A stretch of 64,000 bases of DNA, from the IMG/VR virus record IMGVR_UViG_3300034356_003109; one strand, written 5' to 3'. Shown in pieces: positions 2,889 to 60,156 of the stretch (position 1 is its first letter; every line of letters starts with the position of its first letter). This DNA is from an uncultured virus (IMG/VR IMGVR_UViG_3300034356_003109). Taxonomy: Duplodnaviria; Heunggongvirae; Uroviricota; Caudoviricetes. The notes beneath the pieces are model-generated. The model was not told where the DNA came from and made no database searches. It saw only the letters and a list, made by a program, of their open reading frames with translations. Both the position numbers and the translations under genes were made by a program.

Positions 2889-2952
2889 ATCCCACTAGAA
2901 GTAAGTCTTTTTAAAGAACGGGGCATGAAGCCCCTTGTCCTTCTAATGAGAT
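2889..2952 (-). ncRNA. candidate small structured RNA (three-way junction)
   Basis: 13-bp closing stem ATCTCATTAGAAG/CTTCTAGTGGGAT with G-U pairs on the minus strand, enclosing GGGGC-TTCAT-GCCCC. Confidence 0.4.
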
Positions 2953-2968
2953 AAATTATTTAAAGAAC

Positions 2969-3142
2969 TGGATGACCATGACTTGCGAATATACGAGGAT
3001 TTCACTATTGTTCCATATATTATGGAAAATCAATACATTTACTTTCGAACATATATGTACTTTTTTTCCAAATGTCTTCTCGTTCAATTTCAGTCTCCCC
3101 TACTGTCTTGTAGCGTGCTATAATTCTATACACCAATGGTCA
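2969..3142 (-). ncRNA. tRNA-like RNA with about 100-nt insert at the T-loop position
   Basis: Perfect 7-bp acceptor TGACCAT/ATGGTCA plus T-CCA; D-stem GTGT/GCAC; aberrant anticodon arm; GACT/AGTC T-stem enclosing a long insert. Confidence 0.55.
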
Positions 3143-3147
3143 AAATT

Positions 3148-3305
3148 AATACCCATTTTTTTCTCAGTGTAAAGTGACTATAAACATTATCACTTGGGCG
3201 CACTGTATGTATTCGCAGATCAGGTCGCTCAGTTGTCTAATATACCGGATTATTTCCAGTACCCCAAACTACGTCTTAGTGACGACTGCCCTCATTGCTG
3301 CAAAA
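3148..3305 (-). ncRNA. candidate structured RNA(s) in tRNA cluster spacer
   Basis: Nested stems TTTGCAG/CTGCGAA, CGTC/GACG, TACTGGA/TCCGGTA, CAGTG/CACTG, AAGTGAT/GTCACTT; GC-richer than surroundings. Confidence 0.4.
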
Positions 3306-3323: not shown

Positions 3324-3405
3324 TGGTCCCGCTGGCGAGTTCGACCTCGCAATCCAAAAGGCGAGGGTTTTTAAGACCCTTGTGTATACGTTCCACCACA
3401 GCGGG
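3324..3405 (-). tRNA. tRNA-Leu(TAA)
   Basis: Acceptor CCCGCTG/CAGCGGG-ACCA; AGGGT-CTTAAAA-ACCCT; 6-nt T-loop. Confidence 0.85.
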
Positions 3406-3408
3406 ATT

Positions 3409-3451
3409 AAAAGAACACACACAATTTACTAGAAACTGTGGCCCCTGTCAA
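3409..3451 (-). promoter_or_regulatory. sigma70-like promoter followed by boxA-like element
   Basis: TTGACA-17-TAAATT, then GTGTTCTTTTAA just before tRNA-Leu. Confidence 0.7.
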
Positions 3452-3599: not shown

Positions 3600-4151
3600 A
3601 TGGATAAATCTACGCTAGAGACCTACGTTAGTCAAGGTCTTTCCACTCACCAAATCGCAAAATCAACGAACAAAAGTCAAACTAATGTTAGGTATTGGCT
3701 TAACAAATTCAATTTAAAAACTAAAGGTATTTCTTTTGCCCAAGGATACGCTTTAAAAGAAAAAATTATTGAAAATGAAATTGAATACAAGATATGTCCA
3801 AAATGCCAACAAAAGAAAGAGCTTCTTAAAGAGTTTTATATTAAGGAAGATAAATACGCTCATGCTTGGTGCAAAGCCTGTTCTAATAAAAATACTATTG
3901 CAACTCAACAAAGACTTAAAAAGCAAGCGGTACAATACAAAGGAGGTAAATGCGTAAAATGTGGTTATAATAAATATGATGGAGCTTTAGACTTTCATCA
4001 TCTTGATCCAAGTAAAAAAGACTTCAGCATATCAAAACGTAAAAACTCTTCATTAGAAGTTATAAAAGCGGAATTAGAAAAATGCATATTAGTTTGCCGT
4101 AACTGTCATGCTGAATTACATTTCAATGAGAGATGTGAAAGAACAAATTAA
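3600..4151 (+). CDS. HNH endonuclease with N-terminal HTH and zinc fingers
   Basis: HTH-like STHQIAK..., CPKC/CKAC, CVKC, DFHHLDP...KCILVCRNCHAELH. Confidence 0.85.
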   Translation: MDKSTLETYVSQGLSTHQIAKSTNKSQTNVRYWLNKFNLKTKGISFAQGYALKEKIIENEIEYKICPKCQQKKELLKEFYIKEDKYAHAWCKACSNKNTIATQQRLKKQAVQYKGGKCVKCGYNKYDGALDFHHLDPSKKDFSISKRKNSSLEVIKAELEKCILVCRNCHAELHFNERCERTN

Positions 4152-4156
4152 AATTT

Positions 4157-4232
4157 TGGTAGCCCCGGTGAGATTTTCGCTCACAATCAATCCCTTATAA
4201 AGAGAACGCTTTTGATGTTAAGCTACGGGGCT
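4157..4232 (-). tRNA. tRNA-Ile(TAT)
   Basis: Acceptor AGCCCCG/CGGGGCT-ACCA; anticodon loop TTTATAA; non-canonical T-loop CGAAAAT. Confidence 0.8.
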
Positions 4233-4373: not shown

Positions 4374-4447
4374 TGGTAGGACTGGAGGGTAACGCTCCCT
4401 CTTCAATAGATTAAAAGTCTATTGCATCACTTTAATGCTTCAATCCC
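4374..4447 (-). tRNA. tRNA-Lys(TTT)
   Basis: ATAGA-CTTTTAA-TCTAT anticodon arm; T-loop AGCGTTA; 3' ACCA. Confidence 0.85.
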
Positions 4448-4449
4448 AT

Positions 4450-4492
4450 TTAAAGAACACGATCAATTTACCATACTTTCACTGATTGTCAA
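4450..4492 (-). promoter_or_regulatory. sigma70-like promoter followed by boxA-like element
   Basis: TTGACA-16-TAAATT, then GTGTTCTTTAAA just before tRNA-Lys. Confidence 0.7.
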
Positions 4493-4927
4493 GGGATTCT
4501 TGATACCTTCTGGAATTTCTGTGATCCCCGCATGAATCTCACCGTGACAATTCGCACAAACCAAAATACATTTTTTCAACTCATTTACTAATTCTTCATC
4601 TGATTTTCTTTTTCTTACTATCGCATCTGAAATAGTAAACTTTTTATCTGTACCGGGAAGATGATGAAAACTCAGTACGCTTTGACACTTATCATAAGAA
4701 CAAATTTGACATTTGCCGCCAAACTTATTTCTTACTTCTTCTTTCTTTGCAAATCTATTAGTCTTTTTAAAAGTCTTAGATCGATTTTGATGGCTTTTTT
4801 GATAACCTAGATCTATGTAATAAGAAACTAATGTTCTTGAACATTTGAGAAGCTTAGAAATTTCATTTCCTGTTTTGCCCTCAGATCTTAATCTGAGGAT
4901 TTCTTCTTTATACAAACTTCTTTTCAT
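4463..4927 (-). CDS. HNH endonuclease with N-terminal HTH
   Basis: Start moved to MKRSLYK because the upstream extension overlaps tRNA-Thr; CQIC, FHHL...KCILVCANCHGEIH. Confidence 0.85.
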   Translation of the reverse strand: MKRSLYKEEILRLRSEGKTGNEISKLLKCSRTLVSYYIDLGYQKSHQNRSKTFKKTNRFAKKEEVRNKFGGKCQICSYDKCQSVLSFHHLPGTDKKFTISDAIVRKRKSDEELVNELKKCILVCANCHGEIHAGITEIPEGIKNPLTISESMVN

Positions 4928-4933
4928 AAAAAT

Positions 4934-5008
4934 TGGAGCTTCGCCAGAGACTTGAACTCTGCTCTGAGGTTTACAAAACCTCTGCATCGCCATCTATGCT
5001 TGCGAAGC
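4934..5008 (-). tRNA. tRNA-Thr(TGT)
   Basis: GCTTCGC/GCGAAGC-TCCA; GAGGT-TTTGTAA-ACCTC; TTCAAGT T-loop. Confidence 0.9.
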
Positions 5009-14049: not shown

Positions 14050-14466
14050 TTATTTGTCATAGTCTATTTTTCCAATGACGTTTATGCGAAAAGTATTAGT
14101 TACTTTTCCATCATTAGAACTGGTTATAATGTAGCTCTCTTCAATCGTACCGTCAAGAAAAAAAACAATTTTTGTTGCAGATGATTCTATTATTTTTAAA
14201 TCGTTAGTTATTGCGGCAAGTTCATCTGGATTCTCAAGAGAGTTTATAGTGTATTCTTCATCGAAAGATAATTCAATATCTTTTTGATGGTATGCCGCTT
14301 GATGACGTTTGTTTATTAGAAATGTTTTTAAATTCTCTCGCGCTTCTTGATATCTATTTCCATTAAAAGAATCAAAATTAATAACAATCGCGGCAATTAT
14401 TGATAATAAAATCGTAGTCGCCAATACTATCTCTATAAGAGTAAACCCTTTGGATTTACCAATCAT
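14050..14466 (-). CDS. prepilin-type N-terminal methylation domain protein (pilin/pseudopilin-like)
   Basis: KG-FTLIE followed by a hydrophobic helix. Confidence 0.8.
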   Translation of the reverse strand: MIGKSKGFTLIEIVLATTILLSIIAAIVINFDSFNGNRYQEARENLKTFLINKRHQAAYHQKDIELSFDEEYTINSLENPDELAAITNDLKIIESSATKIVFFLDGTIEESYIITSSNDGKVTNTFRINVIGKIDYDK

Positions 14467-14740
14467 TATATTTTGGTAGTTTTTCCAACTCTTTTTGTCT
14501 TTCAATGGCTCGTTTTAAAATGGTTTTTAACTCCATTAGTGCCGTCTCGTAAGAAACACAAGTTATTTCTATATTATCGGTGACATATCCATGATGTAAC
14601 ACTCTATATTTTGGCTGCTCGCCATAAGACCAGCGCGTTTCTATATACCAATGACAGTCTTTATCTTTATGGTGATCGCCGCTGATAAGATCGTGCCATT
14701 CTTCAGATAGCTTTACTATATCTTTTTGTATGTCAGTCAT
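14456..14740 (-). CDS. hypothetical protein
   Basis: Packed ORF. Confidence 0.65.
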   Translation of the reverse strand: MTDIQKDIVKLSEEWHDLISGDHHKDKDCHWYIETRWSYGEQPKYRVLHHGYVTDNIEITCVSYETALMELKTILKRAIERQKELEKLPKYNDW

Positions 14741-33024: not shown

Positions 33025-33117
33025 TGGCGGTGAGAGAAGGATTTGAACCTTCGGTACTCTTTTGAAGTACGGAATTTTAGTAGAATTCTGCCATAAACCA
33101 GACTCGGCCACCTCACC
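33025..33117 (-). tRNA. tRNA-Ser with ACT anticodon
   Basis: GGTGAGG acceptor, G73-CCA, long variable arm GTACT/AGTAC, anticodon arm GAATT-CTACTAA-AATTC. Confidence 0.85.
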
Positions 33118-38780: not shown

Positions 38781-39929
38781 TTATTGACTAGCTTTTAGAA
38801 GAGCGTCTAGTTTATCAACAGGAGTTGCAATGCCTCCGATAGCGGTAAATATAGAAAGACCTTCTTTAACTCCTTTATAAACGCCTTGATGAACTGTACT
38901 GTTGGTTTTAAGAGTTCTATTCAATTGATTGAAAGCGTTGTCTAAGTATTCTTGAGGAATACTATCTAATGTCTTTTCATCGCAAATAGCCACAGCAGCA
39001 GCGGTGCTACCAGTAGAAAGATCAAGCTCGCCGCAAAGAACATTTCTCTTAAGATTTTCGCGTACTGCTTTGCTGATCTCGGATTCACTACTAACATTAG
39101 TAATGTTAGCTGCACCAAAAACCATAATACCAGAATCGAGAACAGTTCTGAAATCATTTGTGTCAAATGTGCTATACTGACTATTTTTAGTAATTATGTT
39201 GTTAAACAAATGGAACAAAGAACAAATATTTGCATTTGCTACTTGCCAGAATTTATTTACAGATAGTTTTGGATAAAGAGAATTGATTCTTTCGTTATCA
39301 AGAATGATAAGAGGAGAAACAATTTTTTGTTCTACTAGTTCACAAGCTTCTTTTAATGTTTCATAAGCATTTTGGCTTACCTTCTTACCTTCGGAAAGCT
39401 TTGGCAGAGCTAGAATCAAACCAACATAAGGAGATCCAGCTTTAATTGTGTTTTGATATTCCTTAACAGTTTTTACAAGCTCAGAACAAACACCAGCACC
39501 AGTTCCACCGCCAGCACCAACTGTTACAAAGATACGATCTATATCTGTACCGATAGAAGACTTAATAAAATCAACGACATCTTCTTTACTGTTTAAAAAA
39601 GCCTGTTTAGCGAATTCTCTGTTTTTTCCTGCTCCTTGCTGTTCGCCAAATTTCATTTTATTTGGTACATTAATTGTCGCAAGATCTTGATCGGCGGTAT
39701 TAATAACACCAACGCGAGCGTAACCAATTTGAGAAAATGTTTCAGCCAATTTTCCGCCACCTTGACCAGCACCAATAAAGCCAAATTTAAAACCTACAGA
39801 ATCTCTATCTTTAGGTTCTGGCTTTTCATTTTGCGGTGGTTCAGGAATGTCTGGCATCACAAAATCAAATGTGTCATTAGATGATGGCGGATTTGGATTT
39901 ATACCATAAATAGGGTTATGTTCATTCAT
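38781..39929 (-). CDS. tubulin/FtsZ-family GTPase (PhuZ/TubZ-like)
   Basis: IGAGQGGGKL, INTA..D, GAGKN, GAGGGTGAG signature, DNE, FDTND. Confidence 0.9.
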   Translation of the reverse strand: MNEHNPIYGINPNPPSSNDTFDFVMPDIPEPPQNEKPEPKDRDSVGFKFGFIGAGQGGGKLAETFSQIGYARVGVINTADQDLATINVPNKMKFGEQQGAGKNREFAKQAFLNSKEDVVDFIKSSIGTDIDRIFVTVGAGGGTGAGVCSELVKTVKEYQNTIKAGSPYVGLILALPKLSEGKKVSQNAYETLKEACELVEQKIVSPLIILDNERINSLYPKLSVNKFWQVANANICSLFHLFNNIITKNSQYSTFDTNDFRTVLDSGIMVFGAANITNVSSESEISKAVRENLKRNVLCGELDLSTGSTAAAVAICDEKTLDSIPQEYLDNAFNQLNRTLKTNSTVHQGVYKGVKEGLSIFTAIGGIATPVDKLDALLKASQ

Positions 39930-58962: not shown

Positions 58963-60156
58963 TTAAATTTTTCCCCATTTTTCAATAGCTTCATAATATT
59001 CATTTGAATATTTTTTAGTAATAGATTGACTCATTGCTTTTGCGCCAGCCGTTGTTCCGTTAGGATGAGAAGTTATAGCTCCGCCAACATTAGCCATCCA
59101 ATTGTTATGGCCGATTATAGAGCTGATATGATCAACTAAACCAGGATGCATTCCGCAACTTAAAGCTGGTACAGCATTCAATTGATTCATATCAGAAATA
59201 ATATTCTTCATGTTTTCTTCGTCAGTTTGCAAATATCCACCGATCATTCCAACATGAAGAGTCCCACATCCAGACATCGCGGCTAACTTGAATAGTAGTC
59301 TAGAATCTATTCTATATTGATGAGATTCAAAGTTAAGAACTCTATCTCCACTCTTCTGGAAATGAATCAATAAAGGTAAATTCAATTCTCGTAAAGACTT
59401 ATAAACACCCATTCCACAATGAAAATTAGTATGAATTCCATTTCCACCTAAATCATGAACAAGTTTAGCTTTGTTTAAAATAAAAGCAGGATCAGAATGA
59501 AGAGAAACGCAATAAAAAGTTTTGTATCCTCCGTCTCTAATTAAATTAGAGACTAGGTCAATTCTTTTTTCAAAACCACAGTGAGCGGCTGAACATAAAA
59601 TTTCGTCTTCTTTTATGAAATTGCATCCGCCATCTAGTAATTTTTTTACTAGTTCTAAATGTTTTTCTGCTGAAAGCCCTATCTTGGGCTTTGTTATTCC
59701 GCCAAAAATAACTTGATTATCTGGAATTCCGCAATGATTTCTTATTTCTTTAAGCCCTATTTTAGGGCCAAGAAAACAGTTTTTCATTTTAGGCGTGAAT
59801 TCAATGTCTAATAGATGGCAAGCTTGAACTTCATCAATGTCACATTGACCGCCCATAACCTGAACTAAAAGATGAGAAATACCATCTTCTTTAAAATTGA
59901 TATTGCTTTCTGGAAAAGCTACGCAAACAATTCCTTCTTTTTTCTTCTTAAGTTCTATTTCATCGCCAAGAATCAAACAACTATGTTTCTCAAACATCTC
60001 TTCTGTTTCCATTTCGGCTCTGCATTTAGGATTACCAATTGATTGACCAACAGCTAAATTAAATGCTGCGTCAGCTACTGAGGTTTTTCCTTGTAAGAAA
60101 TATTTTACAATAAAATAGTCTTCTTTATTAACGGATGTTACGAATAAGTTTTTCAT
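58963..60156 (-). CDS. RuBisCO-like protein (form IV)
   Basis: GPKIG, GGITKPKIGLS, GGCNFIKEDE, LHVG, PALSCGMH, VGGAI.SHP.G..AGA.A. Confidence 0.9.
   Translation of the reverse strand: MKNLFVTSVNKEDYFIVKYFLQGKTSVADAAFNLAVGQSIGNPKCRAEMETEEMFEKHSCLILGDEIELKKKKEGIVCVAFPESNINFKEDGISHLLVQVMGGQCDIDEVQACHLLDIEFTPKMKNCFLGPKIGLKEIRNHCGIPDNQVIFGGITKPKIGLSAEKHLELVKKLLDGGCNFIKEDEILCSAAHCGFEKRIDLVSNLIRDGGYKTFYCVSLHSDPAFILNKAKLVHDLGGNGIHTNFHCGMGVYKSLRELNLPLLIHFQKSGDRVLNFESHQYRIDSRLLFKLAAMSGCGTLHVGMIGGYLQTDEENMKNIISDMNQLNAVPALSCGMHPGLVDHISSIIGHNNWMANVGGAITSHPNGTTAGAKAMSQSITKKYSNEYYEAIEKWGKI

What the first reader, a model, noticed from the sequence alone, without database searches (positions are those of the whole stretch)
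2969..3142. tRNA-like RNA with a CCA end, broken anticodon arm and about 100-nt structured insert in the T-loop
Seen on the minus strand: TGACCAT-TG-GTGT(11-nt loop)GCAC-G-CTAC-AAGACA-GTAG-GGGA-GACT...insert...AGTC-ATGGTCA-T-CCA. The acceptor, D-stem and T-stem spacing are tRNA-like, but the anticodon arm is only 4 bp with a 6-nt loop. The insert has its own pairings (CGAG/CTCG, TGGAAAA/TTTTCCA, TACAT/ATGTA). It lacks the tmRNA G3-U70 pair and TTC loop. Inference: a tRNA mimic or decoy (for synthetases, ribotoxins or processing enzymes) or an intron-like insertion at an unusual position. Standard tRNA scanners would probably miss it.
Basis: partly seen in the sequence, partly recalled or inferred. 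Interest (0 to 1): 0.7.

Follow-up and report, generated by a model that had tools for sequence, protein, structure and literature searches.

The report
tRNA-shaped phage RNA carrying portable module
A large freshwater phage encodes a conserved RNA that has the frame and CCA end of a tRNA but cannot read codons, and whose T loop is replaced by a small folded module that many unrelated phages attach to other RNAs among their tRNA genes; what the module binds is not yet known.

Summary
The 174-base element (3142-2969, minus strand) is as described and is a conserved non-coding RNA gene, neither a decayed tRNA nor an intron-bearing one. I found 66 distinct full-length homologs (121-177 bases) in freshwater phage contigs, almost always among tRNA genes. 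Acceptor, 'anticodon', T and upper stems show compensatory changes, although only one pair passes a tree-aware test. The anticodon loop drifts freely and the D-loop GG and T-loop are gone (0 of 66), while 34 of 36 unbiased homologs end in CCA. About 55 bases of the 'insert' are an optional hairpin. The conserved part is a ~35-base three-way junction (AUAGA / GGAAC / GUGAAAUCC). Unrelated large phages carry the same junction in T arms, D loops, in place of acceptor stems, behind tRNAs and behind GOLLD RNA. It is not in Rfam or T4/T5, and I found no convincing copy in 802 sampled bacterial genomes. Best reading: the tRNA frame is a processing and stability carrier for a T-loop-bearing module that binds a conserved tRNA-handling partner. 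The partner is inferred, not shown. This scan has reported this family and apparently this module before on other DNA.

The parts
2969..3142 (-). Whole tRNA-framed RNA gene, 174 bases
   Evidence: model R1 score 106.5 bits; 66 distinct homologs
3136..3142 (-). Acceptor stem 5' strand (pairs with 2973-2979); U1-A72, G2-C71, A3-U70 invariant
   Evidence: first three pairs 66 of 66; pair 6-67 covaries, 4 independent two-sided changes, 0 hits as high in 40 null alignments
3115..3133 (-). D-like arm; loop lacks G18G19 and carries near-invariant A-N-AGAAU
   Evidence: GG in loop 0 of 66; ANAGAAU in 66 of 66 (part of this motif was in the retrieval patterns)
3100..3113 (-). Hairpin at the anticodon-arm position: stem kept by compensatory change, loop free (about 5-9 bases by eye), no anticodon
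   Evidence: 40 different arm versions among 66 homologs; alignment; pair counts
3092..3095 (-). T-stem equivalent GACU (pairs with 2980-2983)
   Evidence: GAC/GUC, GGC/GCC, GGG/CCC variants
3085..3091 (-). Conserved internal-loop strand at the T-loop position, facing 2984-2992 (AUAUUC plus a 3-base bulge)
   Evidence: AUAUUC 65 of 66 (partly fixed by the patterns); GAR/YUY pairing suggested by remote members
3079..3083 (-). Upper stem ACGAG (pairs with 2993-2997), closing the module
   Evidence: two-sided changes CG/UA and AU/GC
3074..3079 (-). Module 5' strand (here G-AAGA-C; family consensus G-AUAGA-C)
   Evidence: C-G pair to 3014 switches to U-A in 4 of 49 non-family modules and in the 147-148 nt family members
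3015..3073 (-). Optional long hairpin (arm P5), here tipped by GUUCGAAA
   Evidence: absent in 37 of 66 homologs; four unrelated versions in the other 29
2997..3014 (-). Module 3' strands GGAAC-(variable loop)-GUGAAAUCC with a UG..A T-loop signature
   Evidence: GUGAAAUCC 64 of 66, one UGAGA variant, one last-base variant; same strands in unrelated phages
2969..2972 (-). Discriminator U and encoded CCA
   Evidence: UCCA in 34 of 36 homologs retrieved by patterns without CCA; 64 of 66 overall
3423..3451 (-). Promoter-like site ahead of tRNA-Leu, the second RNA and this gene (inferred operon start)
   Evidence: 10 of 12 consensus match; 12 such sites found against 10.1 expected, so weak
2920..2934 (-). 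Terminator-like hairpin 35 bases downstream
   Evidence: 3 found, 1.6 expected; weak

Best explanation
A stable, non-decoding RNA cut out of the phage tRNA operon. The tRNA frame (acceptor stem, U8, D-like arm, anticodon-position hairpin, 4-bp T stem, CCA) acts as a carrier: it gives processing ends and nuclease protection. The working part is the ~35-base purine-rich three-way junction that replaces the T loop. It carries a UG..A T-loop and most likely binds a partner that is the same in many hosts (the tRNA elbow, or a conserved tRNA/ribosome-handling protein), as a dock or decoy during infection. SHOWN: gene, conservation, stems, loss of decoding features, portability of the module, confinement to phage tRNA operons. 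WEAKLY SHOWN: presence in RNA libraries in unspliced form. INFERRED: end processing by RNase P and 3' nucleases, the T-loop fold, the partner (about 0.3 RNA-RNA elbow-type docking, about 0.3 host protein).
For: Family of 66 distinct sequences from 59 viral contigs (tallied) and 66 full-length of 78 metagenome hits. Same-strand tRNA within 1 kb in 46 of 49 loci, none on the opposite strand. Stems: 96.4% of cells paired, 11 of 29 pairs with two-sided change, covariation score above all 500 shuffles. On a tree: 16 two-sided, 42 one-sided and 15 breaking changes. Anticodon loop free, CCA kept. Module outside the family: 37 of 77 distinct hits have at least 4 closing pairs, against mean 4.0 and maximum 11 in 2000 partner shuffles. 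18 copies in 8 phage records, 16 within 1 kb of a tRNA (8.7% of the DNA), 18 of 18 on the nearest tRNA's strand. The same module sits in T arms of unrelated CCA-ended RNAs (L322, L265, L257, L295, L357: 58-35 bits), in D loops (L301, L418), around tRNA bodies (L454, L573, L585, L617), and about 20-45 bases behind GOLLD matches in 5 loci. The module-bearing phages share only generic proteins, so a phage-specific partner is not evident.
Against: No binding, processing or structure data exist here. Only 1 pair passes the tree-aware covariation test at E<0.05, and the junction bases are invariant, so their pairing cannot be read from covariation. The AG..A signature of the first T-loop of the known double T-loop is not met inside the module (fifth base A in 21 of 49). 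RNase P is reported to need a T-loop or similar loop (PMC4919913, passage), which this RNA lacks at the usual place. RNA evidence is contigs only and may include DNA. Discriminator and acceptor pairs differ among remote members, so no shared aminoacylation identity. Host unknown.
Confidence: 0.55

Rival explanations
1. The module is an RNA-only processing element: a small self-cleaving ribozyme or a nuclease cut signal that trims RNAs in tRNA operons.
For: Three-way junction with two arms of free length (P5 from a few bases to about 100, P6 loop to about 60). Tandem copies. One clean circular permutation among 8 hits (L578). Often 10-35 bases behind a tRNA, like theta ribozymes (PMC10879173, abstract listing). 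An RNA ligase is encoded in 6 of 6 large unrelated module-bearing records checked.
Against: No Rfam ribozyme match. Junction bases differ from the hammerhead core (recalled consensus). RNA contigs from 3 of the 4 libraries laid run uncut through the whole module (DNA not excluded). The module is embedded inside at least six independent CCA-ended RNAs, where cutting would destroy the carrier. RNA ligase was not found in 4 of 4 partial family records and is common in large phages.
Confidence: 0.15
2. The whole RNA is a tRNA decoy through its acceptor end (for a synthetase, a tRNA-targeting toxin, or a CCA-processing enzyme), and the T-arm module is only structural.
For: U1-A72, G2-C71, A3-U70 and U73 invariant in 66 of 66 and kept in the remote GC-rich member L322; CCA kept.
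Against: Other module-bearing tRNA-like RNAs have different acceptor ends. The module also occurs with no acceptor end at all, so it has a role of its own.
Confidence: 0.15
3. The module mimics a ribosomal RNA site (16S helix 21 loop or the L1 stalk head) and titrates a ribosomal protein or an rRNA-targeting enzyme.
For: E. coli 16S has GUGAAAUCC at 604-612 and GGAAC at 627-631, two of the three invariant strands in permuted order. The 23S L1 stalk has GGA...UUGAAAUACC at 2156-2175.
Against: The module model gives no rRNA match. Pairing registers differ (the module's last C pairs with its 5' G). The comparison is post hoc, and eight other [G/U]UGA[A/G]A[U/A] sites occur in the same rRNAs. No paper in the listing tied a protein to this loop.
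Confidence: 0.1
4. A tRNA with an intron-like insertion in the T loop that is spliced out to give a working tRNA.
For: A UUCG remnant lies just 5' of the T-stem 3' strand; the optional hairpin comes and goes.
Against: No GUUCRA T-loop or D-loop GG in 66 of 66; 40 anticodon-arm versions with no fixed triplet; the junction is the most conserved part; no joint skips it in 4 RNA libraries (contigs show presence only).
Confidence: 0.03
5. Decayed pseudo-tRNA without function.
For: Not called by ARAGORN or Rfam; 15 pair-breaking changes on the tree.
Against: Invariant loops with freely changing, compensated stems across 66 sequences and unrelated phages.
Confidence: 0.02

Closest known systems
Phage T4 RNA C / RNA D (species 1 and 2) and phage T5 RNA I, III, IV, 1, 2, 2H, 3, X
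   Same: Small RNAs of unknown function encoded inside phage tRNA clusters; several are annotated 'tRNA-like stable RNA with unknown functions' (records; PMC9697503 passage: RNAC and RNAD are late RNAs of yet unknown function).
   Different: None contains the module or matches models R1/R2. T4 RNA C and T5 RNA1/RNA2 keep a T arm with a UUCRA loop, whereas here the T loop is the part replaced.
Head-to-tail (interdigitated) double T-loop of the 23S L1 stalk, RNase P and T-box Stem I (PMC3664808, PMC4810234, PMC4919913)
   Same: Purine-rich invariant junction strands, a UG..A pentaloop (66 of 66), an A-N-AG start on the opposite strand and in the D loop, a variable helix between the strands, and association with tRNA.
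   Different: The AG..A first T-loop is not complete in the module. The D-loop candidate (AGAAU-U-A) lies far from the second loop in the secondary structure. No 3D or binding data.
YrlA-type Y RNAs (Rfam RF02553; PMC4201824, listing only)
   Same: Phage/bacterial non-coding RNAs with a tRNA-like domain; one module locus (L299) lies next to a sub-threshold YrlA match (39.8 bits).
   Different: No RF02553 match to this RNA; it ends in CCA; Ro60/TROVE in only 1 of 10 module-bearing records (several are partial).
tmRNA
   Same: tRNA-like acceptor and CCA with a large non-tRNA domain, in phage tRNA clusters.
   Different: A3-U70, no T loop, no tag frame; 10 of 20 homolog loci carry a separate tmRNA.
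GOLLD RNA (Rfam RF02032; bioRxiv 10.1101/2024.12.08.627333, passages)
   Same: Phage tRNA-island RNA of unknown function; the module follows GOLLD's 3' end in 5 of 20 loci scanned.
   Different: This RNA has no GOLLD match and is 121-177 bases; the module lies outside the GOLLD model.

Membership tests
canonical tRNA | 7-bp acceptor stem, discriminator, CCA | tested here: met
canonical tRNA | D-loop G18G19 | tested here: not met
   0 of 66
canonical tRNA | 7-base T loop with UUCRA | tested here: not met
   0 of 66; no ARAGORN/Rfam call
canonical tRNA | 7-base anticodon loop with a stable triplet | tested here: not met
   40 arm versions among 66, loop length variable
canonical tRNA | aminoacylation | not testable with these tools
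   needs a charging assay
tmRNA | G3-U70 pair and RF00023/ARAGORN match | tested here: not met
   A3-U70 in 66 of 66; separate tmRNAs in 10 of 20 loci
tRNA with intron | removal restores a canonical tRNA | tested here: not met
   no T loop, no GG, no anticodon after removal
tRNA with intron | spliced product in RNA | tested here: inconclusive
   no joint skipping the insert in 4 libraries, but contigs cannot show absence
double T-loop motif (L1 stalk / RNase P / T-box) | second T-loop UG..A | tested here: met
   UGAAA 65, UGAGA 1 of 66; signature from PMC3664808 Fig. 2 legend; the motif was part of the retrieval patterns
double T-loop motif (L1 stalk / RNase P / T-box) | first T-loop AG..A adjacent to the second | tested here: not met
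   fifth base A in 21 of 49 non-family modules and the fourth base is paired; D-loop AGAAU(U)A is only a distant candidate
double T-loop motif (L1 stalk / RNase P / T-box) | interdigitation and stacking on the tRNA G19-C56 pair | not testable with these tools
   needs structure or binding data
YrlA Y RNA | RF02553 match | tested here: not met
YrlA Y RNA | Ro60/TROVE gene in the same genome | tested here: inconclusive
   1 of 10 records, five of them incomplete
known self-cleaving ribozymes (hammerhead, HDV-like/theta, hairpin) | match to the Rfam models or conserved core | tested here: not met
   the GUC needed for a hairpin-ribozyme site (recalled) varies to GCC/CCC
known self-cleaving ribozymes (hammerhead, HDV-like/theta, hairpin) | self-cleavage | not testable with these tools
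   needs an in vitro assay
T4/T5 tRNA-cluster stable RNAs | location in a phage tRNA operon, no decoding role | tested here: met
   46 of 49 loci
T4/T5 tRNA-cluster stable RNAs | sequence or structure homology to a named T4/T5 RNA | tested here: not met

The most novel reading that the evidence does not exclude
[quoted passage not shown] Unrelated phages have grafted it onto tRNA frames, GOLLD and tRNA spacers to hold, shield or replace tRNAs against host tRNA-cutting defences. A new small ribozyme class is the less likely alternative.
Probability: 0.25. Interest if true: 0.85.

Novelty: new variant of a known kind. Interest (0 to 1): 0.62.

Why it matters
Stable RNAs of unknown function have been known in phage tRNA clusters since T4 and T5, with no handle on what they do. 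Here one conserved ~35-base module ties together many such RNAs across unrelated phages and shows that tRNA frames serve as interchangeable carriers. Because it is tiny, has invariant bases and has natural minimal versions (122 bases whole, about 40 bases alone), binding, cleavage and structure can be tested at the bench without the uncultured host. If it grips the tRNA elbow or a tRNA-targeting defence enzyme, it would be a new RNA-based tactic in the phage-host conflict over tRNA.

Tried and rejected
Cultured phages: blastn of the element and of two module-bearing relatives gave only short chance matches or none. GTDB genome scan: 2 hits, both rejected (L255 18.5 bits, L256 no model match). 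Module pattern in 401 + 401 bacterial genomes from two phyla: 1 hit, which reads like protein-coding DNA and was not examined further; this is a sample, not proof of absence. Chance hits dropped before counts: L001 and L011; the hits lacking the 3' half; L102 and L115; L144; 9 of 78 metagenome hits. In one search one repeated family without a closing stem was collapsed (99 to 77 rows). Circular permutation: of 101 distinct hits and 8, only one is a clean permutation; the others are tandem modules or chance. Ro60 link not supported. Shared-protein search over 8 records plus the window found only generic families (HNH, GIY-YIG, dUTPase, RecA, ligases, deaminase, cREC); one cluster had no Pfam match. 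Host: the Atlas search of the pilin-like protein was uninformative; host unknown. Hairpin-ribozyme, hammerhead, L1-binding-site, 5S and SRP resemblances were considered from memory and dropped. Literature: 10 searches found no description of this RNA or module. Fremin 2023 (PMC10690425): main-text passages read; 7 supplementary files gave no motif or sample-id hit; files 1 and 2 could not be searched and may hold a model of it.

Full report
OBSERVATION. It has a 7-bp acceptor stem, U8, a D-like arm with an 11-base loop, a 4-bp hairpin with a 6-base loop, four variable bases, a 4-bp T stem enclosing 108 bases, discriminator U and CCA. The predicted fold contains these stems (z -2.6, 1 of 200 shuffles as stable). 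ARAGORN and Rfam, at gathering and at E up to 10, report nothing at this place.

SETTING. The window is part of a large phage: tubulin-like protein, Clp ATPase, DnaE, class II ribonucleotide reductase, RecA, RuvB. No whole genome is held and the host is unknown (uninformative). The element lies in a minus-strand tRNA cluster. A promoter-like site (3451-3423) is followed by tRNA-Leu (3405-3327), a second conserved RNA (about 3303-3157), this gene, and a terminator-like hairpin (2934-2920). The promoter and terminator matches are no more frequent than in shuffles, so the operon limits are inferred.

FAMILY. Four pattern scans of viral contigs gave 59 contigs with the element, tallied from those lists after dropping chance hits seen. 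A metagenome scan gave 66 full-length and 3 cut-off copies among 78 hits. Together there are 66 distinct full-length sequences of 121-177 bases. A same-strand tRNA lies within 1 kb in 46 of 49 loci, and none lies on the opposite strand. The two GTDB hits are chance, and cultured phages gave no match. CCA is kept in 34 of the 36 sequences retrieved by patterns that did not contain it.

STRUCTURE. On the first 36 sequences, 96.4% of cells pair, 11 of 29 pairs change on both sides, and the covariation score exceeds all 500 shuffles and all slid controls. That control ignores relatedness, so I ran a tree-aware test. Among 66 sequences there are 16 two-sided, 42 one-sided and 15 pair-breaking changes, but only acceptor pair 6-67 passes E<0.05. 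With four remote RNAs added, 9 of the 12 top-scoring column pairs are proposed pairs, and again only that one pair is significant. RNAalifold independently recovers the acceptor, anticodon-position, T and upper stems (20 pairs, 18 with a two-sided change). The D stem and the junction are too invariant to test.

NOT A DECODING tRNA, NOT AN INTRON. No member has the D-loop GG or a GUUCRA loop (0 of 66). The anticodon-position arm occurs in 40 versions with loops of about 5-9 bases. A3-U70 is invariant, and 10 of 20 homolog loci carry a separate tmRNA. Of the 108-base insert, about 55 bases are an optional hairpin: 37 of 66 members lack it and the other 29 carry one of four unrelated versions. 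What stays constant is an internal loop at the T-loop position, a 5-bp stem and a junction with strands G-AUAGA-C, GGAAC and GUGAAAUCC. Parts of these motifs were in my retrieval patterns, so divergent members may be missed.

EXPRESSION. Of 22 runs listed (17 on record as RNA) I laid four, from four studies. Contigs cover the element in all four and run through the whole module in three. No joint skips the insert. One contig stops at 2976, seven bases short of the CCA end, and continues in what I recall as adapter letters. Another library holds a short, hairpin-less homolog. These are assembled contigs: DNA carry-over is not excluded, and ends and levels cannot be read.

THE MODULE IS PORTABLE. 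Among 77 distinct non-family hits, 37 have at least four contiguous closing pairs, against a mean of 4.0 and a maximum of 11 in 2000 partner shuffles. It caps the T arm of unrelated CCA-ended RNAs (L322, L265, L257, L295, L357; 58-35 bits). It sits in D loops (L301, L418) and encloses or replaces the acceptor end of tRNA-like bodies (L454, L573, L585, L617). It follows tRNAs by 10-35 bases and follows GOLLD matches in 5 of 20 loci scanned. Both free arms vary widely, and one clean circular permutation exists (L578). Eight phage records held 18 copies (1-6 each); 16 are within 1 kb of a tRNA, which covers 8.7% of that DNA, and all 18 are on the nearest tRNA's strand. It is not in T4 or T5, and no convincing copy was found in 802 sampled bacterial genomes. 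The module-bearing phages share only generic proteins. An RNA ligase was present in 6 of 6 large unrelated records but not found in 4 partial family records. Ro60 was in 1 of 10.

HOW IT MOST LIKELY WORKS. A module that can replace any arm of a tRNA, or stand alone, is the cargo; the tRNA frame is the carrier that gives defined ends and stability (inference). Identical junction bases in unrelated phages with no shared dedicated protein point to a partner common to many hosts, or to an RNA-only activity (inference). The sequence offers a UG..A pentaloop, half of the double T-loop signature that docks the tRNA elbow in the L1 stalk, RNase P and T-boxes (PMC3664808, passages). The AG..A half is not complete in the module (21 of 49). 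The D loop's A-N-AGAAU could supply it only if the long arm folds back. I therefore do not file it as a double T-loop, but rate elbow-type docking at about 0.25-0.3 and a host-protein decoy at about 0.3. A self-cleaving or cut-signal role (0.15) fits the free arms, the permutation and the positions behind tRNAs, but fits poorly with uncut contigs and with embedding in CCA-ended carriers. Two invariant strands also occur facing each other in E. coli 16S helix 21; this is post hoc, the registers differ, and I give it 0.1. RNase P processing is uncertain, since a review states that a T-loop or similar loop is needed (PMC4919913, passage).

KNOWN RELATIVES AND NOVELTY. The nearest known kind is the set of stable RNAs of unknown function in T4 and T5 tRNA clusters (PMC9697503, passages), with which it shares setting but not sequence or module. 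Papers seen: PMC4810234 (passages and section 4), PMC4919913, PMC3664808, PMC9697503, PMC7609411, PMC10690425 and bioRxiv 10.1101/2024.12.08.627333 (passages); PMC10879173 and PMC4201824 (search listing only). Ten literature searches found no description of this RNA. The library lacks most subscription journals, bioRxiv supplements are closed, and two supplementary files of PMC10690425 could not be searched. Earlier notes of this scan describe the same family on other DNA and what appears to be the same module; I tested the portability claim here.

VERDICT. A real, uncatalogued phage non-coding RNA family built on a tRNA frame and carrying a portable junction module; function inferred, cheaply testable. 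New variant of a known kind; interest 0.62.

Noticed in passing
window 3157-3303 (-): A second conserved non-coding RNA directly upstream, with no Rfam match; a homolog at 82% identity lies in another phage (L401:568-727) away from this family's element. It is well covered in the RNA libraries laid.
   Followed up: partly
window 3327-3405, 4160-4232, 4377-4447 (-): Three tRNA genes found by Rfam but not by ARAGORN.
   Followed up: no
window 33025-33117 (-): tRNA called Ser with the unusual anticodon ACU.
   Followed up: no
window 3600-4151 (+) and 4463-4993 (-): Two ORFs inside the tRNA cluster that share a C-terminal motif resembling HNH endonucleases by eye; no Pfam match.
   Followed up: no
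window 38781-39929, 58963-60156, 14050-14505 (-): Tubulin/TubZ-like protein, RuBisCO-large-chain-like protein and a prepilin-type protein in this phage.
   Followed up: no
window 3043-3051 (-): The optional hairpin of this clade is tipped by GUUCGAAA, a tRNA T-loop-like sequence, and its stem shows a compensatory change in L184.
   Followed up: partly
L264, L266, L269, L279, L292: GOLLD RNA 3' domain (93-125 bits, cut by the locus end) is followed by a stand-alone copy of the module.
   Followed up: partly
L454, L573, L580, L585, L617: The module encloses tRNA-like cloverleafs that lack a CCA end, some in tandem pairs.
   Followed up: partly
L299, L259, L276: Permuted tRNA-like (YrlA-like, sub-threshold) RNAs immediately upstream of the module.
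   Followed up: no
L002, L043, L003, L076, L087 flanks: Several other repeated, apparently structured spacers with no Rfam match at gathering threshold lie beside the element in different phages.
   Followed up: no
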